A stretch of DNA of 64,000 nucleotides. Source: Candidatus Woesearchaeota archaeon. Lineage in GTDB: Archaea > Nanobdellota > Nanobdellia > Woesearchaeales > JAFGLG01. The position numbers and the translations under genes are program-made. The DNA lies in the NCBI GenBank assembly GCA_016928155.1, contig JAFGLG010000002.1:80412-144411 (forward strand), in the 5' to 3' direction. Under the pieces are notes generated by a model. The model was given only the letters and a program-made list of their open reading frames with translations, was not told the origin of the DNA and did no database searches. Below are positions 26,321-64,000 of this stretch, one piece after another (position 1 is the first letter of the stretch; each line of letters starts with the position of its first letter).

Positions 26321-26530
26321 ATGAAAATTGAGAAAGTCATCAAAGAAATCCAACAGATACTTGCAAAAGATACCAGAGGATTGACAATCCAAGAACTTTC
26401 TGAGATAACCAAAGTGTCAAGGATAACAACATCCATGGCACTGATGAAGCTAGAAGGGGCAGAAACCATAGTTGTCCGCCCAGTCGGAAACTGCAAACTC
26501 CACTATCTAAAGGAGAAATACCCGAAATGA
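26321..26530 (+). CDS. small winged-helix DNA-binding protein (69 aa)
   Basis: LTIQELSEITKVSRITTSMALMKLEGAETIVVRP; 4-nt overlap with the next giant gene. Confidence 0.6.
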   Translation: MKIEKVIKEIQQILAKDTRGLTIQELSEITKVSRITTSMALMKLEGAETIVVRPVGNCKLHYLKEKYPK

Positions 26531-29500: not shown

Positions 29501-30471
29501 TCGGATTCGGCCATCATCACTATTCAATGGATGAACTCAGGATATCAGATGCAGTGCTTGATCCCACAGTAATAAACTACAGCAGGCACAGGGACACAAC
29601 ATTCTATGATGATGAGATTCTCGTCGACAATAGTCATTATGGTGGATTGGACAACATCACGCTCAAATACTGCCCTTATGATGGAACGATGTATGGGGAA
29701 TGCTTGAACAGGACTGTGCTTATCAACCAGCCGCCGATTGCGGAAAGCATACTCCTGAATCCCGAAACTGTTCTGCCAGATGGGACACTGACCTGCTATG
29801 GGGCTGCATCTGATCCTGAAGGACAGCCAATGACATATTATTACCAATTCTACATCAATTCAATCGGACAAGGATGGAGCCTTAGCAGTCAATTCGACTG
29901 CGATGGTGTATGCAACGAGCTCGATGATATATACTGCGAATTCTACGCGAATGACAACGAGTGGAACACATCCATACTGCAGAGCAATAATGCCACAGTG
30001 GTCAGTGACTCAGATGGAGACACCGGCGGAGACACCGGCGGAGGCTCTCCGCTCGCGCTCAAGGGAGGAGGGGGCGGAGCGTATTATGCCGCCGAAGCTG
30101 CAACAAACGAGACCTGCACTGAAGACTGGAGCTGTGGAGAATGGAGCGAATGCATGGAGGGTATCAGAATCAGGGAATGCTTTGATACAAATGACTGCAA
30201 GACAAGTGTTAATATCCCGGCGACACAAACTGCATGCGAAGGAGAACCTCCTATATTCATAGAAAAGGCAAAAGGGACAACAGAAGAATTTGAGACAATA
30301 ATGGGACTGAAAGAGATAAATTACCACAACCTTATAATGTGGACAGCATCAATGGCAACAAGCGCCCTGATAATAATATTCATAATACTGGCACATGCAA
30401 GACCGCCGAAGAACAAAATCGATGAGATAAAGAAAGAGATGGAAGAATTTGGAATAAAATCAGCCAAATAA
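26527..30471 (+). CDS. giant surface protein: at least 11 BNR/Asp-box repeats (beta-propeller), a LamG/concanavalin-like domain, a Cys-rich module and a C-terminal TM anchor
   Basis: Repeated S-x-D-x-G-x-T/S-W (SVDGGETW, TADGGESW, SDDSGATW, STDGGHHW, SQDHGISW, STDGGLSW, SEDKGESW, STDGGITW, SEDNGDTW, SMDGGETW, SDDYGSSW); signal peptide; hydrophobic helix then basic tail at the C-terminus. Confidence 0.85.
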   Translation: MSRKKIMEIALFIIIIHLIIYSSAALHPNDYWTESNNGIVSWNVRSIAVDHQNSSIIYALTQANGVYKSVDGGETWNPKTNGIPADPSVTWGHLFGNQLTMDPSNSSILYTNFGGMPFRTADGGESWQNITEGIDTCLPQHAIAGVAVDPQNSSHIFAAFTVSSCPGGIYESDDSGATWTHIASYSGSGDLNNDAWALTVDPTNSSRLYSAPQYLGFLYSTDGGHHWTRNSPTGATLIPGMEVEVHPENTSRIILGQDTGLYVSQDHGISWTDKTDVMGGAVYDIDFAPSDPSIGYAVGMGGIAKSTDGGLSWSKMNDDESLSLRSVAIDPDDPERIYLADLGKGVFMSTNSGEDIEQKNSGLPISRDIRATAIAPSDPTIYYISVIGNGFYRSEDKGESWTLMSVHGDVINTIDIEVDNNDPEIVFAGITNIYKSTDGGITWNETLESGDDTITDIQMDPNDNSIIFATSSRWPSSSLIYKSEDNGDTWGTKTGFSLVTRSVTPIVIDESNSSRIYVGTYNGLRRSMDGGETWSLITNGLTGYGTWIDGIGIYPENPSRLYLTARDHNLHYSDDYGSSWATKTNTASYPGRIIIDWHNPDDFYVFTLYSWMKFLANASSKIYMPTTGIKGDAKRFRESALQDPLNPNRFISGDFNQGFMVYNRYEDRKVSYMLPKRVIQNHTLYISGTVEDKLDGDVDLMVNDSGTILLNKTVPAENGHFEYQFLVNASIPIGQKKITFYFHNLSAGADGYNEAYFTVDDLNIPTNHMPQTSGFNMSYDYTLDWVRAGDFNYYDEDDDEETGSIKDIYINNAFLKSESSSQTALIHFDGSPNTTENDPYDYNVDGEFDYATGKFGQAIHFGNYSWVNYDSRDVMDLHQGTIEFWVNTDWDWDNLTEDVWFIWFSGYYGDYIYLLCNATTDTLDYILYSNSTKSNISIDTSDWTKDEWHHIAITYNLSGSHENNSMEIFADERYSSESGIYPIRTIGLYDAIGFGHHHYSMDELRISDAVLDPTVINYSRHRDTTFYDDEILVDNSHYGGLDNITLKYCPYDGTMYGECLNRTVLINQPPIAESILLNPETVLPDGTLTCYGAASDPEGQPMTYYYQFYINSIGQGWSLSSQFDCDGVCNELDDIYCEFYANDNEWNTSILQSNNATVVSDSDGDTGGDTGGGSPLALKGGGGGAYYAAEAATNETCTEDWSCGEWSECMEGIRIRECFDTNDCKTSVNIPATQTACEGEPPIFIEKAKGTTEEFETIMGLKEINYHNLIMWTASMATSALIIIFIILAHARPPKNKIDEIKKEMEEFGIKSAK

Positions 30472-52446: not shown

Positions 52447-54187
52447 CCTTTCTGAGAACCTTATATGCAATCTTTTCCTGCCCAAAGGCTGTCTTGGCAA
52501 GCTCCCTGTTGAGTATCTCAAAACTCCCATTAAGCCCATTGTTGTTCTTAAGGAAAGAAATATAACCGCCTGCCCTAGGATTAAGAAGTATATCCCCTTC
52601 AGCTGTCGAGAGTGAACCATTATACCTACCTTGTGACATCTGTCCGAAATACCTTCCGAAGAAATCATTCAAGGAAGCATCTTGAAGGATGCCATTCAGA
52701 TCGACATCACCATCCAGCATACATAGCTTGAGCCCAAAATGATGAGTCCTCCTGTAGAGTCCTCTGAGTTCTCTCTCAAGCCTGGCAAGCTTTGAGAAGT
52801 CCTTTATCGGGTCGCCAGCCACCTTCCACCTGACCCCAATCATGGTATCATAAACATCGATATCAAAATTAGCGAAAGGCCCGAGGAAACCATCCCTGAT
52901 CTGCCATATCCTGTCATTGATATCCTTCTTGTCCTCAATGCCATGTGTATTGAGCCTGTAAACAAGAACATACTGGCTGCCATAAGGCACAGTAGGTATG
53001 TTGACAACCACGCGAGGAGCCCCATTCGCAACCTCTGCCAATTCCTTATTCATCTCCTCAGACTCAGCCAGCCTTATCCTGAGCTCGCTTATCTCACGCT
53101 GATACCTATCAGTCGCTTCTTTTATCTTAGGCGCCATGATCCTCTCAGGGACCTCCTCTTTGTGCAATCTCTCGAGCTCCTCTGTAAGCTTAAGAAGGAT
53201 TCCATGAGATTCATCCTGCTGTTCGGAAAGATCACGAACCATGGCCTCAAGATCAGAGATCCTGCCCTCCTTAATCTCGAGCGCCTCCACAGCATCACCA
53301 TGCATCTGCATCAGCGCGGCATATTGTTCAGCAACACCAGCCAGTCCATCGAGCCTTTCGCGGGCAGACTCCAGCTCAACCTGGGCAGACTCAAGCTGCT
53401 TCCTGAGACCTTCATCACCATCGCTTGCTGAGAGAGCCTCACTCAGAGCTCTGCTATATTTAGCTTCCAATTGCGCCTTCTGCTTGGCCAAAGACTTCTT
53501 ATGGGAATCCATCACCCGCGTGTACGCATCAATGTCTGCTTTGCGACATTCCTTGAGATGATTGACAGCGCCTTCAAGGACTTCCACTCTCTCCCTGCTT
53601 GCAAGATATAGGCTGACTGACATGTCCAGCAGCATATGGAAAGGTAGATAAGCTATCCCTGTGTCATTGTCTATATGGGCTTCCTGGAAAAATGAGAAAG
53701 GCACATGAGAGGAATCCTGCACAATCAGCTGCTTCTGATAGTCAAGATATGGAACCACTATATTGGAATAAAGACCAAACCTCTCTTCCATCTTCTGGAA
53801 ATCAGGCAAGGTGCGACCAGATCCATGCTCTTTCACTGTGGCAAACCTGCAGACAGGGACATATCCAACAATGCTTGACAAATCAGGCCTGGCATCTGAA
53901 GCAGAAACAGATGCATCCTGCGCAGAAGACTTCTTCCCAGACAGCTCTTCGACACCGATCCCACGTCTCAGAAATATCTGGGTCATACTCTCCCCATCAT
54001 GCCCTTTGACAGATTCCTGGACAGAGCCATCAGGGAGAATCATGTAATTCATTGTCTGGGTATCAATCCTGGATGGGTTCAACCTATCATCTATAGAAGA
54101 GACACTAAGATGCGATGTCTCAAAAACCGGGATATCTTCCGGCTCAGCATTCTTTGGTTTTTTCTTTTTGGGATCCATTTTAAGCAT
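52436..54187 (-). CDS. hypothetical protein (583 aa) with a central Ala/Glu/Leu-rich coiled coil
   Basis: Long ORF with coding-like composition; no family recognised. Confidence 0.5.
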
Positions 54188-54280
54188 GCATCAATGCATT
54201 TATAGCAGGTCTGCGCATATAGTACATTGGCTCATTATTTAAATCTTTCGTTAAGTTTGTCACTCCAAAGTAAGTAAAAA

Positions 54281-54303
54281 TGTTGTTACACCCCGTAACA
54301 ACA
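54281..54303. promoter_or_regulatory. perfect 9-bp stem / 5-nt loop hairpin (TGTTGTTAC-ACCCC-GTAACAACA) in a divergent intergenic region
   Basis: Seen directly; followed at 54317-54335 by the TTTCTATATTG promoter-like box. Confidence 0.35.
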
Positions 54304-54387
54304 GAATACTATAAAATTTCTATATTGTAAATAATATAAAAGCAGATTTGCCCAATATTTAAAAAGGATGATACATGAAACAGGTCC

Positions 54388-54858
54388 ATGCAAAAAGCAA
54401 GAATACTGAACACAAGAGAGACCAAACAGATAATGAAAAAAATCGAAGAGCAGTGGGGTTTCAGAGGAGACCTGAGATATACATTCATACAGAATGAGAG
54501 GGACAAGATATTTGTCATAACCAACGACCTCAAACTGCTTGAAAAACCGGAAGACCTGAGGATAGATTCACTAGGACTCTATTTCGGAGAATTCAAGAAC
54601 AACGAGCTCAGGCTGTCAATAGAAGGGAGCCAGATGATCGGACCAGGAGCCACCCATGATGTGATCGATCTCACGCGCGCCCAGATGATACAATGGTTCA
54701 AGGGGGATGACATCGAGATGGATATCGGAGGAGAACCGAGATATGTCATCATGAGGCATGAGAAAGACTTCCTAGGCACAGGAAGATACAAAGAAGGCAA
54801 GATACTGAACTTCGTGCCGAAGGCAAGAAGGCTTGACTACAAATATGCGGAAGATTAG
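54388..54858 (+). CDS. nip7: Nip7-like ribosome biogenesis protein (PUA domain)
   Basis: DSLGLYFGEF ... RLSIEGSQMIG pattern aligns with the archaeal/yeast Nip7 YSLGTxFGK region; about 156 aa. Confidence 0.6.
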   Translation: MQKARILNTRETKQIMKKIEEQWGFRGDLRYTFIQNERDKIFVITNDLKLLEKPEDLRIDSLGLYFGEFKNNELRLSIEGSQMIGPGATHDVIDLTRAQMIQWFKGDDIEMDIGGEPRYVIMRHEKDFLGTGRYKEGKILNFVPKARRLDYKYAED

Positions 54859-55298
54859 GAATTCCAGATCCTGTCGCCGACATAATGGATGTTCCTGATG
54901 ACCTTCCCCTTATCGATCCGCTTCATCTCTCCGGAAGAATACTTCGCCTGGCCGACCGCAAGCGGCTTGCCGTGCTTCTCATCAACAACCAATACCAAAG
55001 CGCCATCATGGAAATCATCAAAAGATACGATGCCTGGACGCATGATGTCAGCGCCGGAAGCGACAAATTTCACAGCACCCATGTCGACGACAACCCGGGA
55101 CATCCGGATGCCCCTGCTGATTATGGCCTTCAGGGTAGGCAGGATGATATCCCCTGACACAAGACAGACAGGCGCACCATCAAGCAGGATAAAATCATCA
55201 ACCTGCTCAACCTTATCCTTCTTAGAAAATGAAAGGCCAAAAGGAGACAGCCTCTGACCCAGCTCTCTCTTCTCGGAATTGCTGAAAACCTTCCTCAT
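54855..55298 (-). CDS. PUA-domain RNA-binding protein (MCT-1/Tma20-like)
   Basis: C-terminal PUA pattern VVVDMGAVKFVASGADIMRPGI. Confidence 0.65.
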   Translation of the reverse strand: MRKVFSNSEKRELGQRLSPFGLSFSKKDKVEQVDDFILLDGAPVCLVSGDIILPTLKAIISRGIRMSRVVVDMGAVKFVASGADIMRPGIVSFDDFHDGALVLVVDEKHGKPLAVGQAKYSSGEMKRIDKGKVIRNIHYVGDRIWNS

Positions 55299-55513
55299 TT
55301 AAGGGAGTCCTCTAAAGGCTTCTTCTTCTCCTGCTGCATCCTCTGAGCCTCCTTCTCCAGATCAACACCAAGATTCTTGAGCTCCTTGATGTGCATCTGC
55401 ATGAGCTGCTCAACAATGCCGACAATCTTCAGAAGCTCCTCGCGCTCCTTCGCCAGAGTGCTCAGAGAGCCCTTATGAAACCCAATCTGCTCATCTTTTG
55501 AAATATCAGCCAT
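55295..55513 (-). CDS. small coiled-coil protein (72 aa), translationally coupled to the PUA gene
   Basis: ATGA overlap with the downstream gene; no motif recognised. Confidence 0.35.
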   Translation of the reverse strand: MADISKDEQIGFHKGSLSTLAKEREELLKIVGIVEQLMQMHIKELKNLGVDLEKEAQRMQQEKKKPLEDSLK

Positions 55514-55550
55514 ATTATCACCTTCTCCTTGGATTCATCCAGGGTTTATA

Positions 55551-58103
55551 TTATTTCTCCTTCCTCATAAGCTCTTCAAGACGCTTGTGGATATTCATTA
55601 TCGATTCCTGGGCAACACTCCTGTATGAATAGATATAATTGCCCAGCATGCCCACAATGACAACCAATGCTACTGTAGCCATCAGGACCTGATTCTTTGT
55701 CTTGTGGTCAATGCCACTGAACCATTCCTTTATCTCTGCACGGCCCTGCTCTGAGAAAAGCATCCCGAGATTCGGGAACTTCCTTGCAGTCGGCCTAGGA
55801 GCCTCCTGCTCAGGAACAGGTTCAGGCTGCTTCACAGGAGGAGGAGCACCTGTATCAACACGCTTGGCAGGAGCGGATTCCTTTATGATAGATTTATCAG
55901 CATCTTCTGTATCATCTTCTTCATAACTTTTTGGACAGTCCTCAGGACAGGTAGTTGAATCCTCATTACTATCACATGTCCCATCACCGCAAGTCCCTAT
56001 CCCTGGTTCGTAATCGCCACCGCCACCGCTACTGCAATCTGCAGGACATGAGCTTGAAGTCTCTCCTGAACCACAATAATTGTTTCCGCATACCTCAGTG
56101 AAACTCCTTGTCTCACTATTCCCTGAATGACCACCCTGCGCAATGCACCTTATGTCCCAGTAACGGTCTACTATTGTCGGGGTATAAGTTATGAGTGTCG
56201 TGACATCCTCCTGTGTTGAGACATTTGTGGCCTTCTTGACGCCATTGACATACAAGCTGCAATTTGTCTCATCCAGCCTATCAGAAATGCTGAAGACAAA
56301 TTTATTAGTCGTGGTATTCCAGAGCACATCATCATCGGGCCAATCCAGGTACACACAGAATCTGTCTCCCAGCAGGCTATATGAATTATTCACCCCTCCC
56401 TCAGATATGTACTTCGTATTATGGCAGATCAGATTGTCGCTGACAGTCGTGTTATAAGAATCACGCGTCAAGATCGCAGTTGATGAATTCTGGATCGTAT
56501 TTGATGTTATGGATGCGAATGTCGAGTTCTGCAGATAGACACCCTGATTCACATCAATTATATTCTCAGAAATCTCCAGATGATCAGTCCTATTAAGGAA
56601 AAAACCAAATGTATAATTATGCAGTGCACAGTCATGCAAGGATATATTCGTCAGATTGATAATATGGAATGCAGAGCCTGAACCGTCACCTGTCAAGGAT
56701 GCGCCATTGCATTCCACGGTGATTCCTGACAAGGTGATGTTGAATATCCCGTCAAGATTCTTGTCAACCAGACTATAAGACCCAAGACAGAGAGTGATGC
56801 TCCTGTTGACAAGCAGATCATCATATGGCGAGAGGGTGTCAGAATCATAAGGGGCACAGTCTGTCGGATCAGGGTCGCCGTCACTGTCTGAATCAAGGGC
56901 GGTCAAGGAGATATCCAATGAGTAATCTGAAATGTTAAATCCGGCAGAATTCATGGCATAACCACCTGCAGTTGTATTCATGGTATATAAACCCACATAC
57001 AACGCGTCAGATACATTCACAAAAAATCCGGTCAAGAAAGGCACATCCACATACCCATTTGAATCTGATATCTTGGAAAATGCCACTCTTCCCAATCCAT
57101 CCCATGCAACCACATTTGCATCCCCGACAGGCAATCCTTCTGTGTCATTCACATGAATATCAACATATTCTTTTACATGCACCTCATAATCCCCCTGTTC
57201 TATATCAATTTTGGAATTATTCACTGATGTGTTCACCAATGAAAGCACATGGGTTCTTGCGAACGAATTCGGATTTGTGATATAGACATCCTTAGTGGCA
57301 CCACTGAATGAACTATCAAATGCAGATATATTGCCGAATTGCCCTATACCATTCAGGCCATACCTACTTCCTGCAGCCTGAATATTATGCATCTGCATTG
57401 AATTGAACCTACTGATCGGATTTGATGATGCACTAATGGCTATATTGATCCCGTCTCCGACATTCGCTATCGCCACAGAATTCTTAAATACAACATCACT
57501 TATCACATATCCGAATTGGATTGCTGCATAAGCAACATGAATCCCACTATATATGGAGGTAAGGTTGTCACCATAAAAGTTATTAGTGCCAATAATAATG
57601 GGATAATTATTGCCAGAGGAATTCACAAAGACATTTGACATGTTCAGGCTGTTGTTTAGGTCAGTACCCAAAAACTCCATTGTGCTGTCTGTCCTTATGC
57701 CAGAAACAAAGAAATCAATAGGCTTATACACATAAATGCTTTTGCTGTAATTGTATATATCACAATCAAGTATTGTCACATTATCTGAACCAGATTCTGA
57801 ATAGATCGCATATCCTGACATATTGCCCCGAATCAGAGAACCATTGCAGTCGAGCACTATGTCGCTTGCATTGATTATCATAACACCATTGTTGCCGGTG
57901 TCATTCACCTGATAGACAAGGCCGCAGAGGACTGTGTCATCGTTTATGTAGGTGTCATCATCGGTAATATTAATGCATGCCAAGGCAGAGGTCGAGAATA
58001 CAAGAGTGAATACCATTGCAGCAATCAACAGTGCAAATCTTGACATGCTTCTCATCTTCTTCAACCTCTTTTTCGAATAATCCTGCATCATCATCTTCTC
58101 CAT
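55551..58103 (-). CDS. secreted right-handed parallel beta-helix (PbH1/NosD-like) repeat surface protein with a Cys-rich module and a C-terminal TM anchor
   Basis: Signal peptide; many short Asn/Gly/Ile-rich turns typical of beta-helix; CGNNYCGSGETSSSCPADC...CGDGTCDSNEDSTTCPEDC; Pro/Glu linker, TM helix, basic tail. Confidence 0.8.
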   Translation of the reverse strand: MEKMMMQDYSKKRLKKMRSMSRFALLIAAMVFTLVFSTSALACINITDDDTYINDDTVLCGLVYQVNDTGNNGVMIINASDIVLDCNGSLIRGNMSGYAIYSESGSDNVTILDCDIYNYSKSIYVYKPIDFFVSGIRTDSTMEFLGTDLNNSLNMSNVFVNSSGNNYPIIIGTNNFYGDNLTSIYSGIHVAYAAIQFGYVISDVVFKNSVAIANVGDGINIAISASSNPISRFNSMQMHNIQAAGSRYGLNGIGQFGNISAFDSSFSGATKDVYITNPNSFARTHVLSLVNTSVNNSKIDIEQGDYEVHVKEYVDIHVNDTEGLPVGDANVVAWDGLGRVAFSKISDSNGYVDVPFLTGFFVNVSDALYVGLYTMNTTAGGYAMNSAGFNISDYSLDISLTALDSDSDGDPDPTDCAPYDSDTLSPYDDLLVNRSITLCLGSYSLVDKNLDGIFNITLSGITVECNGASLTGDGSGSAFHIINLTNISLHDCALHNYTFGFFLNRTDHLEISENIIDVNQGVYLQNSTFASITSNTIQNSSTAILTRDSYNTTVSDNLICHNTKYISEGGVNNSYSLLGDRFCVYLDWPDDDVLWNTTTNKFVFSISDRLDETNCSLYVNGVKKATNVSTQEDVTTLITYTPTIVDRYWDIRCIAQGGHSGNSETRSFTEVCGNNYCGSGETSSSCPADCSSGGGGDYEPGIGTCGDGTCDSNEDSTTCPEDCPKSYEEDDTEDADKSIIKESAPAKRVDTGAPPPVKQPEPVPEQEAPRPTARKFPNLGMLFSEQGRAEIKEWFSGIDHKTKNQVLMATVALVVIVGMLGNYIYSYRSVAQESIMNIHKRLEELMRKEK

Positions 58104-61100
58104 CTTGTGCTCCAGGAGATCTTACCATCAGGCCCTATCTTCATGAAGTACTTTATCCTCTTCATCTCCTTCTTCAGCTCAAACGGAATCTCCTTCTTGG
58201 TATAGACCCTCGGCCTGAAATGCTTACTTGCAGCAACAAGAAGGTCAGATGTCTCCCTGCTTATGCTGTGCTTCTTCGACAGCTCATGGGATATCCTGCT
58301 CTGCTCAGGCGTGAGCTTATCAACTCCCAAATTCTTTATGCCTTTATGAGGACGCACAACACGGACTTTAGGCACCCAAGCAAGCTTCTTGAGCTTCAGC
58401 AGAGCATCAAATGAGGCCACATCCATGAATGCCTTAGGCGCCATGACACCAGGGGACAGGATGAACAGCAGAATCGCTATCGTGAGAAGCACTGTGCCCA
58501 TGAACCTGTTAGGGAGAGGAGTAGGCTCTTCTATCACAAAGCCCCTGTCAGCCTCATGCCCTCCATCTTTGGTCTCTGGCTCCTCGCGGATCCCTGAATC
58601 AAAGAAACCGCCCTGCTTATGCTCTGGCTCATGACCAGGGCAATAACCGCAATCCTGAGGACAGGACTCACATGTCTCTCCGTCATTGCATATCTCATCA
58701 GGGCATTCAGGGAAATAAGTCAGATGCACGCCGCCACCGCCCTGGCAAACACCGCAGTCCTGAGGACAGTTCGAACATGTCTCAGAGCCGAAACATATCC
58801 CGTTCCCGCAGTGCTGGACAGGCCTGGGGCCAAGATCATTGACTGTGCCTGTGACATCAGCACCATTTGTGAAATTATAAGGATAATCCAGACCGGAATC
58901 ACCATAGCCATCTGAATCTGAATCAGAAATATCCAGCGGAGCCGCAAGGATGTCGCTCCAATAGTTGCCTCTCGGCGTCCCTGTCGAATTATCATAGAAC
59001 AGATTAGAGCTGTTGTCTGCAGAGGCCTGCAGGGTGTTTCCCTGGAAAGTGTTTGCGTGAATAATATTATCTACTGACAATGATGTTATGTTAATGCCCA
59101 CAAGGTTCTCAATCATCAGATTGCCCCTGATGATGTTGAGATCAGAATCCTCAAGCAGGATGCCCTCTGCGTCATTATACCTCACAGTGTTGTTGGTGAC
59201 ATTATTAGAATCAGCGCTGTCAAGATGGATGCCCGGTCCTACGCTGTATTCCACAATATTATCGCTGATATCATTGCCTGAAGAAGCCACATAGATGCCT
59301 GAATCAGCCCCCTGGCTCAGGATGACACTGTTGCCTGTCACAGCATTCCCGCTAGAATAGAGCACAATGCCATCATTAGAGCAATTCATGAAAGTGTTAT
59401 CCTCGATCACTGCGCCGTCCATATACACAATGACTCCATCACCGGCATTCTCAATGTAATTGCCCTGAAGCACAAAATCAGAGGTGTACACCTCAAGGTT
59501 GGCCATCAAAGAGCCGCCAAAATCATAGCCGCCGTCGATAAGTCTGGAATTCTTTATCAATAAGCTCGAGCCATCATCTGCGGTTATCACAAAGCCAGTC
59601 TTATGATACCCTCCGGGAGTGCCCGGATTCCAATTGCATCCACTGACAGACAGGCAATTCAGCTCGTTCCTAAGCTCATTACATGATAATGGCCGACATG
59701 GAACTTGCCCGATGGGACAGAACCCACTTGTCTGGACACATCCCAGAGGACATGACCTGGCACAACCTGGACATAATGCTGTACTTAAACCGCTGCAAAA
59801 ACCATCTGTCCCCGGGACATAGACTGTAGGATTCAGAGTTGTGATTATGGATGCATCATCCTCTGTGAGCGGATCATTGTCTGCATCATCAAGAATCAAA
59901 GTGCCTCCGCTCTGGACAGTCACACCGAATTCTCCTGGATAAGAGCTGTCGATATAAATCGTGGTGTTGCTCAGATTGAGCGTCCCGCCGGATTGTATCA
60001 CAATATCATAATCCGCAGTACATATCCCATGACTGATGCTGCAGACACCATCGATAATTCCCGAGTTGTTGTAAAGGCAGAAACAATTATCTGTGATGAC
60101 AAGATCTATGACAGTGCCCTCAGAGATGGTCATGACAGAGTCAATACCGACGAGGCTGACATTCGGCTGGAAACCCGCCTTTGACGCGACTATCCTGTGG
60201 GGATTCATATCAGAGAAAGAACCGTCATTCTCCACCATGTATTCATAAGACATGAATTCAGATGTGATCCCTGCAATTGAGGTCAGACCTGAATATTTCT
60301 GAACAACAGATGAATCAGGCTCATATACCTCGACTGAAGCGTCTACGATGTAATTGCTAGACTGATCCATGACACGCACCTGCGAGGTCCACTCCTGGAG
60401 CTGCTGGCCAATGATGTTCGAGCCTGAACAGAAATCATTTGAGGCATTCATATCGGACCATGCAGTGACCGGCTCTGCGTCCAATGAATGGACGGCATAT
60501 TCCTGATTATGGCAGATAGTGTTGTCCAGCACCACAATATTCGGAGCCAGCAGATAATCATGATTGAATATTCCGCTGCCTCCATTGGAATTGAGGGTGC
60601 TGTTGGTCAGATTTGCCAATGAACCAAGTGAGAAAACACCATGACCTGTGCTGTGAGAGACGGAATTCATGACAAAAGAGGCGCTGGAATTCTCCAGATA
60701 AACACCGTCCAATCCGCTCCTGTTGATATCATTATCAGTCAGGTTCGAATATGAATCCACGAGAACAACACCATAAAACAAATTACCCAGGATCATGTTG
60801 CCTGTAAGATTGAAATCCGAATCCAACAGATATACACCATACCGCACATTTCCGGAGATGTTATTTCCTATCAGATAATGGCCTGATCCCACTGCATACA
60901 CGCCATCGGCACCATTAACAGTGATATTATTATCTTCCAGACTCGAAGAAGAGCCTGTCAGCCTGACACCGCTGACATCATTAGAATAGATGAGATTACC
61001 TGAAAGATTGCACCTGGAATCAGCAGAATCCACACCATCCCCTGTGTTGTCAATGATATGATTGCCTATTAAAGAGGCATTTGATACTGAAAGCGACACA

Positions 61101-63100
61101 CCATCTCCAGCATTCCAAATAATATGATTATCAGTGAGGTTGAAATATGAATCAAGAAGACTTACCCCAGCCCCATCGTTATGAGAGATGGTATTCCCTG
61201 AAAGATTGCACCTTGATCCGGCCGAATTAATCCCAATCGCGCCATTAGAAGAGACATTATTATCCTTGAACACCAATCCAGAGACTTCAATATAGATGCC
61301 ATGGATACCACCGCCGATTATTGAATTGCCATCAAACACAGCACCCTCTGTCGAGGACACAAACAAGGAATAACTCACCCCGCCCACCAGAGTATTATTC
61401 CTGAAGATGCTGTCATCACCGGAATACACCCTCATGTTCATCTGGTTATCGCTGAAACTGTTATGGGCAAACAAATCCCCGAGAGTACTGTTCACATCCA
61501 TCCCAGACAATGAGCTTCCTTTCAGCGTGTTGCCCAGGAACGATGAATTGCTGTGCATGAGATTGTTATCCATTAAGATGCCTATGGAATTATTTTCAGC
61601 TGTGTTATCCGATACTGTCAGATTCCAGACATCCCTGAAAGAAAAGCCTGAATAATCATTCTCATATGCAGAATTCCCTGAGATGAGGCTGTCATTGCAT
61701 CCGGAAAGAAAGAACCCATCTGCTGTATGATCATAAAATGAATTGCCTGATATCTCCATATCCACCAAGCCAGATCCGTACAAGCCTCCCCTATTATTCG
61801 AGAATATCTCGTTATCGATGATACTCCCGGACGAATCAAACACCTTCAGACCATAAAATTCATCATCCCATAACCGGTTATTAATCACTGAAATGTTATC
61901 TGAAATGTTTATATAAACGCCGCTTGAACCCAAAGATAGATGACCATCTTCTGAATTGCTGTATATATCATTGGATGAAATGACTGAATCATCAAAATTA
62001 ATAAAATGCATCCCAAAAAAGCGGTTATCCCACACATCATTATCATGGATATAGGTCTGCGAGGAACCAGTCCCACGTATCCCATATTGTGAGTTACTAA
62101 AAATATTGTTTCGGGTTATATTTGTGTTATCGGCATAATCAAGGTTAATCCCATTATTGCAGTCTGAAATATTATTCTCAATTAAGGCATTATGGTGAAT
62201 AGTATTAGTTATTCTGATCCCAGAATTAACACCATATATTGTGTTTGATCTTATTGTCACATTGTTTGAATTTATCCCAAATTGCATACCCTCTCCTGTC
62301 CCATTATGGATCCTGTTCCCGGAAACAAGGCTATCTGTCACATTAGATACAAAGATACCAAAACCGACAAAACTTGATATGTTATTATCAATTAAATTCA
62401 GATCAGGGCAGTTGTGTATCTGCACTCCCCCCCCAGACAGATTATATAACCTGTTGCCTTCTATTATTGGATTATCCGAATCATGTAGGATAAAAGCATA
62501 AACGACATCGAATATCTCATTCCTCTTAAGCACAACAGAATCAACATACCTGGCATATAATCCATGGTAAGGCGCTTGTGTCTGATTACCCATCCTGCTC
62601 AAAAAGGAATCCTCCATCCTGAGATTACCATACCACACCTGCATATAAGCAGAGTAATCCTGATCATATGTCGATATGAAAGAACCATCCAGTATTGTCA
62701 GATTGCCACCATTGGAATACATACCATATTCACAGTCAAATGAGTTGTTGAAAAGTATGGTCGTGTTTGACATCCCCAGTATGCTGCTGGATACTCTGAG
62801 ATCACCATTCAGGATTATCCCTGTATCCTCACAAAAGGTGTCAGAATTGACAATCCAGTCTCCGGAAGCAGGTGGCTCGATGCCTGTGCAGTCACCTGCA
62901 TCATACAATACAGTGAAACCACTGCCTGATGCAGAAGAGCCTGTCATGATGGACCTGCCTGTATGGAGGTTTGCAGGCCTCTCCACGACAATGGTCTGAT
63001 CGGCTGCATTGCGGTCTGAATCGAACATGAAAGGTGCGCTGAATGCAAGAACTGCAAGGACAACCAGGAGAATCATGCTTAAAGTCCTCATTTTATCCAA
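58091..63100 (-). CDS. giant (about 1670 aa) parallel beta-helix repeat surface protein with Cys-rich CxDGxCxxxETCxxCPxDC modules, a TM anchor and an about 120-aa cytoplasmic tail
   Basis: Dozens of N-x-I-x-x-N/G-x-G-I repeats (NNISxNxxxGI...); CGNGICFGSETCSNCPQDCGVC / CNDGETCESCPQDCGYC; the likely real start is ATG at 63091 (MRTLSMILLVVLAVLAF signal peptide), overlapping the RHH stop. Confidence 0.85.
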   Translation of the reverse strand: MDKMRTLSMILLVVLAVLAFSAPFMFDSDRNAADQTIVVERPANLHTGRSIMTGSSASGSGFTVLYDAGDCTGIEPPASGDWIVNSDTFCEDTGIILNGDLRVSSSILGMSNTTILFNNSFDCEYGMYSNGGNLTILDGSFISTYDQDYSAYMQVWYGNLRMEDSFLSRMGNQTQAPYHGLYARYVDSVVLKRNEIFDVVYAFILHDSDNPIIEGNRLYNLSGGGVQIHNCPDLNLIDNNISSFVGFGIFVSNVTDSLVSGNRIHNGTGEGMQFGINSNNVTIRSNTIYGVNSGIRITNTIHHNALIENNISDCNNGINLDYADNTNITRNNIFSNSQYGIRGTGSSQTYIHDNDVWDNRFFGMHFINFDDSVISSNDIYSNSEDGHLSLGSSGVYINISDNISVINNRLWDDEFYGLKVFDSSGSIIDNEIFSNNRGGLYGSGLVDMEISGNSFYDHTADGFFLSGCNDSLISGNSAYENDYSGFSFRDVWNLTVSDNTAENNSIGILMDNNLMHSNSSFLGNTLKGSSLSGMDVNSTLGDLFAHNSFSDNQMNMRVYSGDDSIFRNNTLVGGVSYSLFVSSTEGAVFDGNSIIGGGIHGIYIEVSGLVFKDNNVSSNGAIGINSAGSRCNLSGNTISHNDGAGVSLLDSYFNLTDNHIIWNAGDGVSLSVSNASLIGNHIIDNTGDGVDSADSRCNLSGNLIYSNDVSGVRLTGSSSSLEDNNITVNGADGVYAVGSGHYLIGNNISGNVRYGVYLLDSDFNLTGNMILGNLFYGVVLVDSYSNLTDNDINRSGLDGVYLENSSASFVMNSVSHSTGHGVFSLGSLANLTNSTLNSNGGSGIFNHDYLLAPNIVVLDNTICHNQEYAVHSLDAEPVTAWSDMNASNDFCSGSNIIGQQLQEWTSQVRVMDQSSNYIVDASVEVYEPDSSVVQKYSGLTSIAGITSEFMSYEYMVENDGSFSDMNPHRIVASKAGFQPNVSLVGIDSVMTISEGTVIDLVITDNCFCLYNNSGIIDGVCSISHGICTADYDIVIQSGGTLNLSNTTIYIDSSYPGEFGVTVQSGGTLILDDADNDPLTEDDASIITTLNPTVYVPGTDGFCSGLSTALCPGCARSCPLGCVQTSGFCPIGQVPCRPLSCNELRNELNCLSVSGCNWNPGTPGGYHKTGFVITADDGSSLLIKNSRLIDGGYDFGGSLMANLEVYTSDFVLQGNYIENAGDGVIVYMDGAVIEDNTFMNCSNDGIVLYSSGNAVTGNSVILSQGADSGIYVASSGNDISDNIVEYSVGPGIHLDSADSNNVTNNTVRYNDAEGILLEDSDLNIIRGNLMIENLVGINITSLSVDNIIHANTFQGNTLQASADNSSNLFYDNSTGTPRGNYWSDILAAPLDISDSDSDGYGDSGLDYPYNFTNGADVTGTVNDLGPRPVQHCGNGICFGSETCSNCPQDCGVCQGGGGVHLTYFPECPDEICNDGETCESCPQDCGYCPGHEPEHKQGGFFDSGIREEPETKDGGHEADRGFVIEEPTPLPNRFMGTVLLTIAILLFILSPGVMAPKAFMDVASFDALLKLKKLAWVPKVRVVRPHKGIKNLGVDKLTPEQSRISHELSKKHSISRETSDLLVAASKHFRPRVYTKKEIPFELKKEMKRIKYFMKIGPDGKISWSTRWRR

Positions 63101-63237
63101 CCTCTGCCCTCATCTTTCTTCTGCTTGATGAGGAACTCAAATCCATGGGAGCGGTTCGCGAATATCTTCTCAGAGATCCTCTTGTCCAGCCACTCGAGAA
63201 GCTCCCTGTCAATCGACACTGTTATGCGTTCTTTCAT
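63088..63237 (-). CDS. unannotated 49-aa ribbon-helix-helix (CopG/Arc/MetJ-type) DNA-binding protein, translationally coupled to the giant beta-helix gene
   Basis: Hand translation: MKERITVSIDRELLEWLDKRISEKIFANRSHGFEFLIKQKKDEGRGWIK; beta-strand ITVSID plus two helices; TGA overlaps the ATG of the giant gene (ATGA); below the 60-aa track cutoff. Confidence 0.55.
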   Translation of the reverse strand: MKERITVSIDRELLEWLDKRISEKIFANRSHGFEFLIKQKKDEGRGWIK

Positions 63238-63480
63238 TTTTTAGACCAGTATAGGCTAGTGCATACTAATACTTAATTATGTAGTTTTTGTATTAAGTAA
63301 TATTTAAATGTATCTATTTGTATAATTATGTACTAATTAGTAATAGATAATAAGAATAATACATATTAGTACATACTTAAATATCATTATCTATCTTTTT
63401 AGAAGGAAACAGGAAAACAGGGGCATATAGAGAAAGAAGGGGAAGAGAAAATAGGAGGAATAAATGAAAAAACCGCAGAA

Positions 63481-63846
63481 TCAGCCAAAAACCGATTTAG
63501 CCCTCCTAAGAAGGTCTTCAGGATCAAACGGCTTTGTTATGTAATCAGCGCTGCCGCCCAAAGAGAGGGCCTTCATCTTGTCAGACCATTCTCCCTTTGC
63601 TGTAAGGAATATTATCGGGATGCTTTTCATGGCCTCATCGCGCTTCATGACCCGCATTGTATCATAACCATCCATCTGAGGCATCATCACATCAAGGAGG
63701 ACAAGACTGGGCTTATGCTTCCTTATCACATCAAGCGCCTCCTCCCCTGAAAGGGCGCCATGAACCTCAAAGTCATCCTGCAGCGTCATCTTCACCAGAT
63801 TCAGGATATGCTGCTCATCATCCACAACCACAATCTTTCTCTTCAT
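63481..63846 (-). CDS. CheY-like response regulator receiver domain protein (stand-alone)
   Basis: KIVVVDDEQHIL (acid pocket), LVLLDVMMPQMDG (phospho-Asp), FLTAKG, SLGGSADYITKPF; start probably the internal Met at 63846. Confidence 0.8.
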   Translation of the reverse strand: MKRKIVVVDDEQHILNLVKMTLQDDFEVHGALSGEEALDVIRKHKPSLVLLDVMMPQMDGYDTMRVMKRDEAMKSIPIIFLTAKGEWSDKMKALSLGGSADYITKPFDPEDLLRRAKSVFG

Positions 63847-64000
63847 AACAACACCTCCTACTTCTTGATCATCCATCATTCACTCAAATCAAAAAAACAT
63901 CATATCTCCGGCGGGCAGAAGACATGCCAGCCCATGCTATCATTCCCCTTAACAAAAGGGCAGTCATCATGGCTGCAGTCGATATGCTCCCAGCAAATCT

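What the first reader, a model, noticed from the sequence alone, without database searches (positions are those of the whole stretch)
58091..63237. Unannotated ribbon-helix-helix gene translationally coupled to a pair of giant beta-helix surface-protein genes
A 49-aa RHH protein can be translated from 63237-63088 (minus strand). It is missing from the ORF track only because of the 60-aa cutoff. Its TGA overlaps the ATG (63091) that opens the signal peptide of the 1669-aa beta-helix protein. That gene in turn overlaps the 850-aa beta-helix protein gene by 13 nt. A DNA-binding repressor co-transcribed with roughly 2500 codons of adhesin-like surface protein is an unusual regulatory design. It could autoregulate or phase-control surface-coat expression.
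Basis: seen in the sequence. Interest (0 to 1): 0.6.

Follow-up and report, generated by a model that had tools for sequence, protein, structure and literature searches.

The report
Small DNA-binding gene leading giant surface-protein operon
A real 49-codon gene for a small ribbon-helix-helix DNA-binding protein sits directly in front of, and overlaps, two giant surface-protein genes in a DPANN (Woesearchaeota) archaeon; the same small gene, with its own conserved DNA repeat in front of it, leads large surface-protein or exporter genes in most of the roughly 80 related genomes examined, so it is probably their built-in self-regulating switch.

Summary
The ORF at 63237..63088(-) encodes a 49-aa protein. 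Its TGA overlaps the ATG (63091) of a 1666-aa beta-helix/NosD protein, and an 850-aa paralogous-architecture gene follows tightly. It is not truly unannotated: GenBank holds it as a hypothetical protein of a Ca. Woesearchaeota MAG.

[quoted passage not shown] AlphaFold gives pLDDT 88.6 with strand-helix-helix topology. Profile hits go to NikR, CopG and CcdA, and Foldseek hits to NikR and ParD. Pfam and NCBIfam cut-offs are not reached.

The protein belongs to a large DPANN-specific family of 42-76-aa stand-alone RHH proteins.
- In 78 of 81 related loci a same-strand gene starts within -60..+25 nt of the RHH stop, most often with a 4- or 8-nt overlap.
- 53 of these are large proteins with an N-terminal hydrophobic segment, and 13 are ABC-exporter ATPases.
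- A strand-specific repeat, RTATGTA at 10-nt phasing, flanks the TATA box upstream of these RHH genes. It is absent from 364 control promoters.
- In the 64-kb window its only two matches lie in the RHH upstream region.

Best explanation: an autoregulating RHH repressor, first cistron of a surface-protein operon. No evidence for phase variation. This is a new variant of a known kind, of moderate interest.

The parts
63467..63472 (-). T6 run just after the stop (63481) of the upstream receiver-domain gene. It is a likely archaeal oligo-T termination signal separating that gene from the RHH operon.
   Evidence: Read from the sequence. The function is inferred.
63360..63375 (-). Distal operator-like element: a perfect tandem TATGTA-N4-TATGTA (10-nt phasing), in the same orientation as the RHH gene and about 52-67 nt upstream of the TATA box.
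   Evidence: this is the only perfect match in 64 kb (0.17 matches expected). It fits the family consensus A-R-TATGTA-NNN-R-TATGTA-G-T, which is enriched 71-fold upstream of homologous RHH genes.
63317..63332 (+). Second copy of the repeat pair, with 1 mismatch and in inverted orientation, directly upstream of the TATA box.
   Evidence: It forms inverted repeat I1/I6 with the distal element.
63301..63308 (-). Candidate TATA box TTTAAATA, preceded by purine-rich AGATACA. It starts 71 nt before the RHH ATG.
   Evidence: TTTA[TA]ATA occurs at a comparable position in most homologous loci. The promoter function is inferred.
63248..63285 (-). [quoted passage not shown] They span the expected transcription start.
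   Evidence: In related loci the TATG[TC]A cores peak at -30 to -11 from the ATG.
63088..63237 (-). 49-aa stand-alone ribbon-helix-helix protein gene, the first cistron.
63100..63104 (-). GAGGT Shine-Dalgarno-like site inside the 3' end of the RHH gene, 8 nt before the ATG at 63091.
   Evidence: The same GAGGT-8 nt-ATG arrangement occurs at 58068-58064 / 58055.
58091..63091 (-). 1666-aa surface protein. It has a signal peptide, right-handed beta-helix/NosD repeats, Cys-rich modules, a C-terminal TM segment and a basic tail of about 115 aa. Its start overlaps the RHH stop (ATGA).
55551..58103 (-). 850-aa surface protein (834 aa from ATG 58055) with the same overall layout: signal peptide, NosD-like beta-helix, Cys-rich modules and a C-terminal TM segment. 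It overlaps the upstream gene by 13 nt, or follows it after a 35-nt gap.

Best explanation
The 49-aa protein is a stand-alone ribbon-helix-helix DNA-binding protein. It is the first cistron of an operon that also encodes two large membrane-anchored beta-helix surface proteins. Transcription starts from a TATA-box promoter at about 63308-63301.

The RHH protein most likely dimerises, and dimers bind cooperatively to RTATGTA hexamers spaced one helical turn (10 nt) apart. There is a perfect pair upstream of the TATA box, and degenerate copies lie around the TATA box and the transcription start. Occupancy of these sites would block assembly of the pre-initiation complex, so the operon represses itself (negative autoregulation).

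The RHH stop overlaps the ATG of the giant gene, and a Shine-Dalgarno-like site lies inside the RHH gene. Repressor and surface protein would therefore be made from one mRNA in a fixed ratio.

Shown:
- the ORF, the overlap and the RHH fold
- family-wide coupling to large secreted or membrane proteins and to ABC exporters
- a motif that occurs only upstream of these RHH genes

Inferred:
- DNA binding to that motif
- repression rather than activation
- a single transcript
For: ORF and ATGA overlap with an internal GAGGT site.

RHH identity:
- AlphaFold2 gives pLDDT 88.6, with an extended N-terminus, helix 11-22 and helix 29-47.
- Foldseek top hits are the H. pylori NikR RHH domain (32% identity) and the ParD2, PrpA and ParD RHH antitoxins (TM up to 0.84).
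- The family profile hits E. coli NikR at E 8.7e-4, and all 10 PDB hits are RHH proteins.
- NCBIfam NikR models score E 5e-5 to 7e-7 over residues 3-44.
- The N-terminal strand MKERITIT aligns with CopG's MKKRLTIT.

Conserved coupling:
- 78 of 81 terminal RHH genes in DPANN loci are followed by a same-strand gene starting at -60..+25 nt. The overlap is 4 nt in 25 cases and 8 nt in 17.
- 53 of the downstream genes are large with an N-terminal hydrophobic segment. 13 are ABC ATPases, each followed by a secreted protein and two MacB/FtsX-like permeases.
- 35 of 60 complete RHH-led genes are >=700 aa, against 59 of 644 other genes (p 2e-18).
- Independent gene calls agree.

Cis-element:
- GTATGTA occurs 60 times in 82 upstream regions, against 0.84 expected from locus background and 3.4 from shuffles.
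- Core spacing is exactly 10 nt in 29 cases.
- None of 364 control promoters has the forward pair. The few controls with a pair on either strand share the intergenic region with an RHH gene. Fisher p is 2e-21.
- Both matches in the 64-kb window lie in the 243-nt RHH upstream region.
- Copies lie both upstream of the TATA box and between TATA and ATG, and in both orientations. That argues for a DNA-level rather than an RNA-level signal.

Precedents: aCcr1 boxes lie between TATA and the start codon (PMC9976878). SvtR represses its own gene and a tail-fibre gene from a distal high-affinity site (PMC5569661).
Against: - Pfam RHH_3 and RHH_1 scores (15.9 and 15.6 bits) are below the gathering thresholds of 21.6 and 20.5.
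- There is no experimental binding or transcript data.
- The window's proximal sites are degenerate. Only the distal pair is perfect.
- Only 26 of 82 upstream regions carry an exact pair and 42 of 82 an exact heptamer, so the element is not universal as I defined it.
- The protein has no ligand-binding domain, so it is unclear what would ever relieve repression.
- The motif could be bound by another factor.
- The giant protein has no close homologues, so orthologous loci could not be compared directly. Conservation was tested through the RHH family only.
Confidence: 0.68

Rival explanations
1. Cross-regulating network. All RHH paralogues keep the same DNA-reading strand and the same RTATGTA operator. 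Each RHH made from one surface-gene operon would therefore also repress the other RHH-led operons of the genome. The family would then act as a shared regulon, or a mutual-exclusion switch, for surface and host-contact genes rather than as purely local feedback.
For: R4, I5 and T6 are invariant, and K2, E3 and T8 nearly so, across 120 homologues. The same motif appears upstream of RHH genes that lead unrelated cargo families. Several RHH-led loci occur in one genome or on one contig, for example L027 with four RHH genes, L024 plus L057, and L053 plus L061.
Against: Only one RHH gene and one motif cluster exist in this 64-kb window. Copy number per genome was not measured. None of 364 non-RHH promoters carries the motif, so there is no wider regulon beyond the RHH-led operons. 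Expression data are lacking. This reading extends the best explanation rather than excluding it.
Confidence: 0.2
2. The RHH protein is an activator or dual regulator of the operon rather than a repressor. One possibility is activation from the distal site at low concentration and repression at high concentration.
For: The perfect tandem site in the window lies upstream of the TATA box, a position compatible with activation. The archaeal viral RHH protein AvtR both activates and represses (PMC5569661).
Against: In most related loci the strongest motif concentration is between TATA and ATG, at -30 to -11. That is the classical repressor position. Most characterised RHH proteins repress.
Confidence: 0.1
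3. Orphan or degenerate type II antitoxin. The RHH would be a remnant of a toxin-antitoxin pair and unrelated to the giant genes.
For: Structural neighbours include ParD, PrpA and CcdA antitoxins. A weak NCBIfam MazE-antitoxin hit was found at E 0.012. Antitoxin genes also typically overlap the next gene.
Against: The downstream partner is a 1666-aa secreted beta-helix protein. In 78 of 81 related loci the partner is a surface protein, an ABC exporter or another non-toxin gene. The protein is only 45-50 aa and has no C-terminal toxin-binding extension. It is very strongly conserved across a superphylum, unlike patchy TA modules.
Confidence: 0.02
4. The small protein does not act on DNA. It serves the downstream protein directly, for example as a co-translational partner or chaperone, or in export. 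The RTATGTA repeats would then be bound by another factor or be part of a shared promoter type.
For: The strict translational coupling, and the fact that cargoes are almost all exported or membrane proteins, would also fit a protein-level role. DNA binding has not been tested.
Against: The fold and the strand and helix-2 N-cap residues (KERITIT, NRSH) match the DNA-contacting elements of NikR and CopG. Three cargoes are cytoplasmic beta-CASP RNases. The motif is tied to the RHH gene itself and not to a cargo type.
Confidence: 0.05

Closest known systems
CopG (RepA) of plasmid pMV158, the 45-aa RHH autorepressor of the copG-repB operon
   Same: Similar size, and a stand-alone RHH protein. It is the first gene of an operon that it represses. 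The N-terminal strand is nearly identical (MKKRLTITL versus MKERITITL; HMMER alignment). From my own knowledge, it binds cooperatively on successive helical turns.
   Different: The PDB profile hit is weak (E 0.25). The cargo is a plasmid replication initiator, not surface proteins. CopG's operator is a pseudo-palindrome in a bacterial promoter. Here the setting is an archaeal chromosome with a TATA-box promoter and direct 10-nt repeats.
NikR (N-terminal RHH domain)
   Same: It is the best sequence match: NCBIfam E 5e-5 to 7e-7 over residues 3-44, PDB profile E 8.7e-4 and 32% identity in Foldseek. It shares the helix-2 N-cap motif NRS(E/H).
   Different: NikR has a C-terminal nickel-binding domain and is 130-150 aa long. 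That domain is absent here, and all NikR model cut-offs are missed by a wide margin.
CdrS-ftsZ2 of Halobacteria and other archaea (PMC7439475)
   Same: A small archaeal RHH gene co-transcribed with, and regulating, the structural gene directly downstream.
   Different: CdrS is reported as absent from DPANN. The NCBIfam CdrS model is not matched by the window protein. The cargo is ftsZ2, not surface proteins.
aCcr1 of Sulfolobales and their viruses (PMC9976878)
   Same: [quoted passage not shown]
   Different: The aCcr1 model match is only E 0.061, at 13 bits against a 60-bit cut-off. aCcr1 acts in trans on cdvA and other genes and is not translationally coupled to its targets. Its box is different.
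SvtR of rudivirus SIRV1 (PMC5569661)
   Same: A 6.6-kDa RHH protein that represses its own promoter and that of a large structural (tail-fibre) gene. It has a high-affinity site distal to the TATA/BRE and is proposed to spread towards the promoter. This matches the window's layout of a perfect distal pair plus degenerate proximal copies.
   Different: SvtR is viral and acts in trans on a separate gene. Its motif is different. No sequence relationship was tested.

Membership tests
Ribbon-helix-helix superfamily (Pfam RHH_1 PF01402 / RHH_3 PF12651) | Topology of about 45 aa: N-terminal beta-strand, helix A, helix B | tested here: met
   The AlphaFold2 model has pLDDT 88.6, residues 1-10 extended, and helices at 11-22 and 29-47. 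The top Foldseek PDB matches are RHH domains of NikR, ParD2, PrpA and ParD, with TMq 0.62-0.84.
Ribbon-helix-helix superfamily (Pfam RHH_1 PF01402 / RHH_3 PF12651) | Score at or above the Pfam gathering threshold | tested here: not met
   RHH_3 scores 15.9 bits against 21.6, and RHH_1 scores 15.6 against 20.5. One homologue (P0103) carries a precomputed PF01402 hit.
Ribbon-helix-helix superfamily (Pfam RHH_1 PF01402 / RHH_3 PF12651) | Profile-level sequence similarity to solved RHH proteins | tested here: met
   The family profile against PDB gives NikR at E 8.7e-4. All 10 hits up to E 10 are RHH proteins (NikR, CcdA, CopG).
Ribbon-helix-helix superfamily (Pfam RHH_1 PF01402 / RHH_3 PF12651) | Dimerisation through the paired strands and sequence-specific DNA binding | not testable with these tools
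   This is only inferred, from the conserved RTATGTA repeats found exclusively upstream of family members.
NikR | C-terminal nickel-binding (ACT-like) tetramerisation domain and a total length of about 130-150 aa | tested here: not met
   The protein is 49 aa and only the RHH part aligns (residues 3-44). Scores are 15-30 bits against cut-offs of 83-175.
CdrS | Match to the NCBIfam CdrS equivalog model and synteny with ftsZ2 | tested here: not met
   The window protein gives no CdrS hit. The downstream gene is a beta-helix protein. The literature reports CdrS as absent from DPANN.
aCcr1 | Match to the NCBIfam aCcr1_fam model (cut-off 60 bits) | tested here: not met
   13.2 bits, E 0.061, over residues 5-20 only.
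Type II RHH antitoxins (ParD / CcdA / MazE-like) | A cognate small toxin gene immediately downstream and a C-terminal toxin-binding extension | tested here: not met
   The downstream gene encodes a 1666-aa secreted protein. Partners in 81 related loci are surface proteins, ABC ATPases or beta-CASP proteins. The RHH protein ends about 10 residues after helix B.
Right-handed parallel beta-helix / NosD-like surface proteins (the two cargo genes) | Pfam Beta_helix/NosD repeats above threshold, plus export and anchoring signals | tested here: met
   For the 1666-aa protein, Beta_helix scores 275 bits and NosD 253 bits. For the 850-aa protein, NosD scores 33.5 bits against a 23.6-bit cut-off. N-terminal hydrophobic segments and C-terminal TM segments were detected by a hydropathy scan. 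Surface location itself is inferred.

The most novel reading that the evidence does not exclude
The RHH gene plus its RTATGTA operator is a portable control cassette specific to DPANN archaea. It has been placed in front of many unrelated, fast-evolving giant surface proteins, type-IV-pilus-like genes and MacB-type exporters. All paralogues keep the same DNA-reading residues and the same operator, so the RHH-led operons of one cell would cross-repress. That would give coordinated or mutually exclusive expression of alternative host-contact proteins, an antigenic-variation-like choice made by transcription factors rather than by DNA rearrangement.
Probability: 0.12. Interest if true: 0.8.

Novelty: new variant of a known kind. 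Interest (0 to 1): 0.5.

Why it matters
DPANN archaea are tiny and mostly uncultured. Many live attached to other cells, and their giant, rapidly evolving surface proteins are the prime candidates for host contact. Almost nothing is known about how these genes are controlled.

This analysis identifies a dedicated regulator family of 45-50 aa. It is present in hundreds of lineages and has no family-specific Pfam or NCBIfam model. It also identifies a candidate operator (RTATGTA at 10-nt phasing) and a fixed gene architecture: the RHH stop overlaps the start of the cargo gene.

These give three practical handles:
- a sequence signature for finding surface and host-interaction operons in DPANN genomes, even when the cargo has no recognisable domains
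- a simple in vitro test, using a 49-aa protein and a 240-bp DNA fragment
- a way to read the regulation of such genes in metatranscriptomes

If the finding is only local feedback, it is a tidy but unsurprising addition to RHH biology.

Tried and rejected
- **Direct Pfam scan of the 49-aa protein.** It gave only sub-threshold RHH hits. Family profiles and structure prediction were needed.
- **Homologues of the 1666-aa protein, to compare orthologous loci.** Apart from the identical GenBank protein, only two weak beta-helix-repeat matches appeared, covering 9-10% of the query. Synteny had to be tested from the RHH side.
- **Paralogues of the RHH gene in the window.** None found (tblastn).
- **Bacterial sigma-70 and terminator scan**. 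It is not informative for an archaeon and was ignored.
- **Rfam scan of 54000-64000.** No RNA family was found, so there is no known leader or riboswitch.
- **Horizontal-transfer signal.** GC content is 0.42-0.47 across the window, and the region is not anomalous.
- **Phase variation.** No simple repeats or recombinase were seen. The inverted repeats in the promoter are oppositely oriented copies of the operator-like motif. Rejected for lack of evidence.
- **Membership in NikR, CdrS, aCcr1 or the antitoxin families.** Tested and not met (plus context).
- **Literature searches** for RHH/CopG with DPANN or Woesearchaeota, and for regulators of DPANN surface proteins. No description of this family or architecture was found. 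The library is incomplete, so absence is not proof.
- **My first regex-based and greedy ORF context analysis**. It missed ORFs that run off the locus end and produced spurious small antisense 'neighbours'. It was replaced by HMM detection and a run-off-aware scan.
Full report
**1. Observation.** With a 30-aa cutoff, an ATG-initiated ORF of 49 codons is listed at 63088..63237 on the minus strand. Its sequence is MKERITVSIDRELLEWLDKRISEKIFANRSHGFEFLIKQKKDEGRGWIK.

The DNA reads ...GAGGTTGGATAAAATGAGG.... The RHH stop TGA (63090-63088) shares three bases with the ATG at 63091-63089, an ATGA overlap. A GAGGT Shine-Dalgarno-like site (63104-63100) lies 8 nt before that ATG.

The downstream ORF is 1669 aa from TTG 63100, or 1666 aa from the ATG. 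The independent Logan gene call and the NCBI protein use the ATG. It has strong Beta_helix (E 1.4e-82) and NosD (E 2.4e-75) repeats, an N-terminal signal-like segment, and a TM segment at about residues 1529-1559.

An internal ATG at 58055 is preceded by the same GAGGT-8 nt-ATG arrangement and gives a textbook signal peptide (MRSMSRFALL...ALA|C). The second junction may therefore be a 35-nt gap rather than an overlap. In either case the three genes are tightly packed on one strand.

The exact 49-aa protein is already in GenBank as 'hypothetical protein JW968_00955 [Candidatus Woesearchaeota archaeon]', on a 199-kb contig.

**2. Is it a ribbon-helix-helix (RHH) protein?** The direct Pfam scan gives only sub-threshold hits: RHH_3 at 15.9 bits and RHH_1 at 15.6 bits, against cut-offs of 21.6 and 20.5. 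Other evidence is consistent.
- A profile of 26 family members hits the RHH domain of E. coli NikR in the PDB at E 8.7e-4. All ten hits up to E 10 are RHH proteins (NikR, CcdA, CopG). The N-terminal strand aligns to CopG's MKKRLTITL.
- NCBIfam NikR models match residues 3-44 at E 5e-5 for the window protein and down to 7e-7 for homologues. These scores are far below the cut-offs because the nickel-binding domain is missing.
- AlphaFold2 with a 120-sequence alignment gives pLDDT 88.6. The N-terminus is extended, with helices at 11-22 and 29-47.
- The best Foldseek PDB matches are the H. pylori NikR RHH domain (32% identity) and the RHH antitoxins ParD2, PrpA and ParD, with TM up to 0.84.

I conclude that the protein has the RHH fold and is a stand-alone relative of the NikR and CopG DNA-binding domains. 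It is not a member of NikR, CdrS, aCcr1 or an antitoxin family (plus context).

**3. The family.** The protein has 257 homologues at E<=0.01 in the 90%-identity clusters. All listed hits are 42-76 aa long, and those that carry names are from Woesearchaeota, Nanoarchaeota or Nanoarchaeia. An exhaustive profile search finds 805 clusters at 50% identity with E<=1e-3. Nearly all listed hits are under 100 aa.

Conservation is extreme for so small a protein. R4, I5, T6, L14, W16, D18, F26, A27, N28, R29, S30, H31 and E34 are invariant in 120 sequences. These include the strand residues that read DNA in other RHH proteins and the helix-B N-cap (NRSH), which resembles NikR's NRSE.

**4. Is the coupling to a giant gene conserved?** The giant protein itself is essentially an orphan, so I tested synteny from the RHH side.

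A scan of one genome per GTDB species found 179 relatives, of which 79 loci were fetched. HMM detection finds 118 RHH ORFs in these loci. With a run-off-aware scan, the results for 81 terminal RHH genes in DPANN loci are as follows.
- 78 are followed by a same-strand ORF starting between -60 and +25 nt of the RHH stop. The overlap is 4 nt in 25 cases and 8 nt in 17.
- 53 of the downstream ORFs are large (>=700 aa, or running off the contig) and have an N-terminal hydrophobic segment.
- 13 are ABC ATPases, each followed by a secreted protein of about 420 aa and two MacB/FtsX-like permeases.
- 6 are smaller proteins with an N-terminal hydrophobic segment, 3 are beta-CASP RNases and 5 are other genes.

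Among complete genes, 35 of 60 RHH-led genes are >=700 aa, against 59 of 644 other genes in the same loci (odds ratio 13.9, p 2e-18).

The large cargoes fall into at least four unrelated sequence families. The window's beta-helix type is unique among the 80 loci.

Independent pipeline gene calls show the same picture. One RHH gene is followed by 1225-aa and 1097-aa genes, another by a 2610-aa gene. A third is followed by two small proteins plus T2SSE/T2SSF pilus-assembly genes.

The cargo is overwhelmingly cell-envelope machinery.

**5. A conserved cis-element.** I aligned the 120 nt upstream of the RHH genes at the ATG. This shows a TATA box (TTTA[TA]ATA) and repeated copies of RTATGTA.
- GTATGTA occurs 60 times in 82 regions (42 sequences). 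The expectation is 0.84 from locus background and 3.4 +/- 1.7 from Markov shuffles.
- Consecutive cores are spaced exactly 10 nt apart in 29 cases and 20 nt apart in 5.
- The consensus is A-R-TATGTA-NNN-R-TATGTA-G-T.
- Cores cluster at -30 to -11 (between TATA and ATG) and again at -120 to -90 (upstream of TATA). Reverse-orientation copies lie in between.
- Among 364 other upstream regions from the same loci, none has the forward pair. The few with a pair on either strand are divergent neighbours that share the intergenic region with an RHH gene. Fisher p is 2e-21 for the pair and 1e-28 for the heptamer.

In the 64-kb window, TATGTA-N4-TATGTA with at most 1 mismatch matches only twice, against 0.17 expected. 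Both matches lie in the 243-nt region upstream of the RHH gene. One is a perfect pair at 63360-63375, in gene orientation. The other is a one-mismatch pair at 63317-63332, in inverted orientation next to the TATA box at 63308-63301. Degenerate copies (ACTACATA at 63285-63278 and GTATGCA at 63266-63260) span the expected transcription start.

A T6 run (63472-63467) follows the upstream receiver gene, so the RHH operon probably has its own promoter. No Rfam family matches the region.

**6. Mechanism.** The simplest reading is a classical RHH autorepressor. Dimers would bind pseudo-symmetric TATGTA hexamers on successive helical turns. A perfect distal pair and degenerate proximal copies lie around the TATA box and the transcription start, so rising RHH concentration would shut the promoter. 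Because the RHH gene is the first, translationally coupled cistron, its level tracks operon output.

This layout parallels two characterised archaeal cases. aCcr1 boxes lie between TATA and the start codon (PMC9976878). SvtR of SIRV1 represses its own gene and a large tail-fibre gene from a distal high-affinity site, with proposed spreading towards the promoter (PMC5569661).

Three points are inferred and not shown: binding of this protein to this motif, the sign of regulation, and the single transcript. What relieves repression is unknown, because the protein has no sensor domain. The adjacent two-component genes are a speculative input.

**7. Rivals.**
- *Shared cross-regulating network.* This is plausible because the paralogues share reading residues and operator. 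The window holds only one copy, however, and copy number per genome was not measured.
- *Activator or dual regulator.* This cannot be excluded, given the distal perfect site.
- *Orphan antitoxin.* This is contradicted by the cargo types, the short length and the strong conservation.
- *A non-DNA role, such as a chaperone or export partner.* This is unlikely given the conserved DNA-contact motifs and the cytoplasmic beta-CASP cargoes. It remains untested.
- *Phase variation.* There is no support. There are no simple repeats and no recombinase, and the promoter inverted repeats are operator copies.

**8. Comparison and novelty.** The system works like CopG-RepB, CdrS-FtsZ2 or SvtR: a small RHH protein controlling the operon or gene next to it. 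It fails the membership tests for each of those specific families.

CdrS was explicitly reported as absent from DPANN (PMC7439475). A survey of conserved uncharacterised DPANN proteins does not list this family (PMC6393860). My literature searches found no description of it. The searched library is incomplete.

I rate it a new variant of a known kind. The mechanism class is familiar. The following appear undescribed: the family, its operator, its systematic translational coupling to giant surface-protein genes and exporters across a superphylum, and the frequent tandem RHH pairs.

Interest is moderate (0.5). The finding is useful and testable for DPANN biology but not mechanistically surprising. 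Under the cross-repression or mutual-exclusion reading, which I estimate at probability 0.12, it would be considerably more interesting.

Noticed in passing
L006:1494-6062 (and 24 homologous RHH-led genes, e.g. L007, L014, L021, L024, L027, L040): The commonest RHH-led cargo is a protein of about 1300-1600 aa. It has an N-terminal TM segment, CarboxypepD_reg/PEGA repeats, a second TM segment, and a C-terminal HerA/DUF87/TrwB-like P-loop ATPase. In effect it is an extracellular repeat protein fused across the membrane to a translocase-type ATPase. A conserved 'KK(Y/F)IGFAGT' motif follows the first TM segment.
   Followed up: partly
L002, L003, L005-L008, L014, L015, L021, L023, L024, L034, L036, L040, L044 and others; L057:2112-2538 has three: About 35 loci carry two (or once three) RHH genes in tandem, often overlapping by 4 nt. 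21 of 25 HerA-fused cargoes have a tandem pair. All 13 ABC and all 13 'CCY' giant cargoes have a single RHH gene. The tandem pairs may form heterodimers.
   Followed up: partly
L084:8001-12745: One RHH homologue leads two small proteins followed by T2SSE and two T2SSF genes (type IV pilus / archaellum-like assembly). This extends the envelope theme of the cargoes.
   Followed up: no
window 63481-63879 (-) and upstream (L001:1-4318): A stand-alone receiver-domain gene lies directly upstream of the RHH operon. The matching Logan contig shows further response regulators (one with an HTH domain) and a GAF-GAF-HisKA-HATPase kinase on the same strand. This is a possible, untested signal input.
   Followed up: no
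window 58091-58440 (-) and 55551-56050 (-): Both giant proteins end with paired Cys-rich modules (CGNGxC...CxxCPxDCGxC), an acidic or proline-rich linker, one TM helix and a basic tail. The 1666-aa protein has a Lys/Arg-rich cytoplasmic tail of about 115 aa with no Pfam match.
   Followed up: no
window 55295-55513 (-) and 54855-55298 (-): A 72-aa coiled-coil-like gene with a strong SD (GGAGAAGGTGAT) and a PUA-domain gene follow the 850-aa gene after 37 nt, with no T-run between them. They may be read through from the RHH operon or have their own promoter.
   Followed up: no
window 26527-30471 (+) and 23384-26020 (-): The window has other large surface-type proteins: a 1314-aa BNR/sortilin protein with a C-terminal TM segment, and an 878-aa protein with MopE metal-binding motifs. 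Neither has an RHH leader or a TATGTA pair, so only a subset of surface genes uses this module.
   Followed up: partly
L054 (JAFCCF010000001.1) and about 25 loci titled 'uncultured Methanosarcinales archaeon': Records labelled Aminicenantes bacterium or Methanosarcinales carry the DPANN-type RHH gene. At least L054 also has a giant gene (>3336 aa). These are probably mis-binned or mislabelled contigs.
   Followed up: no
L076:9880-10000, L077:1850-1966, L078: Distant RHH homologues in Nitrososphaerota have a different strand sequence (K-M/L-S-I-T-V/I-D) and no coupled downstream gene. In L076 and L077 the upstream repeat also differs (ATCCTACYTRGT). This is anecdotal co-variation of protein and putative operator.
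   Followed up: no
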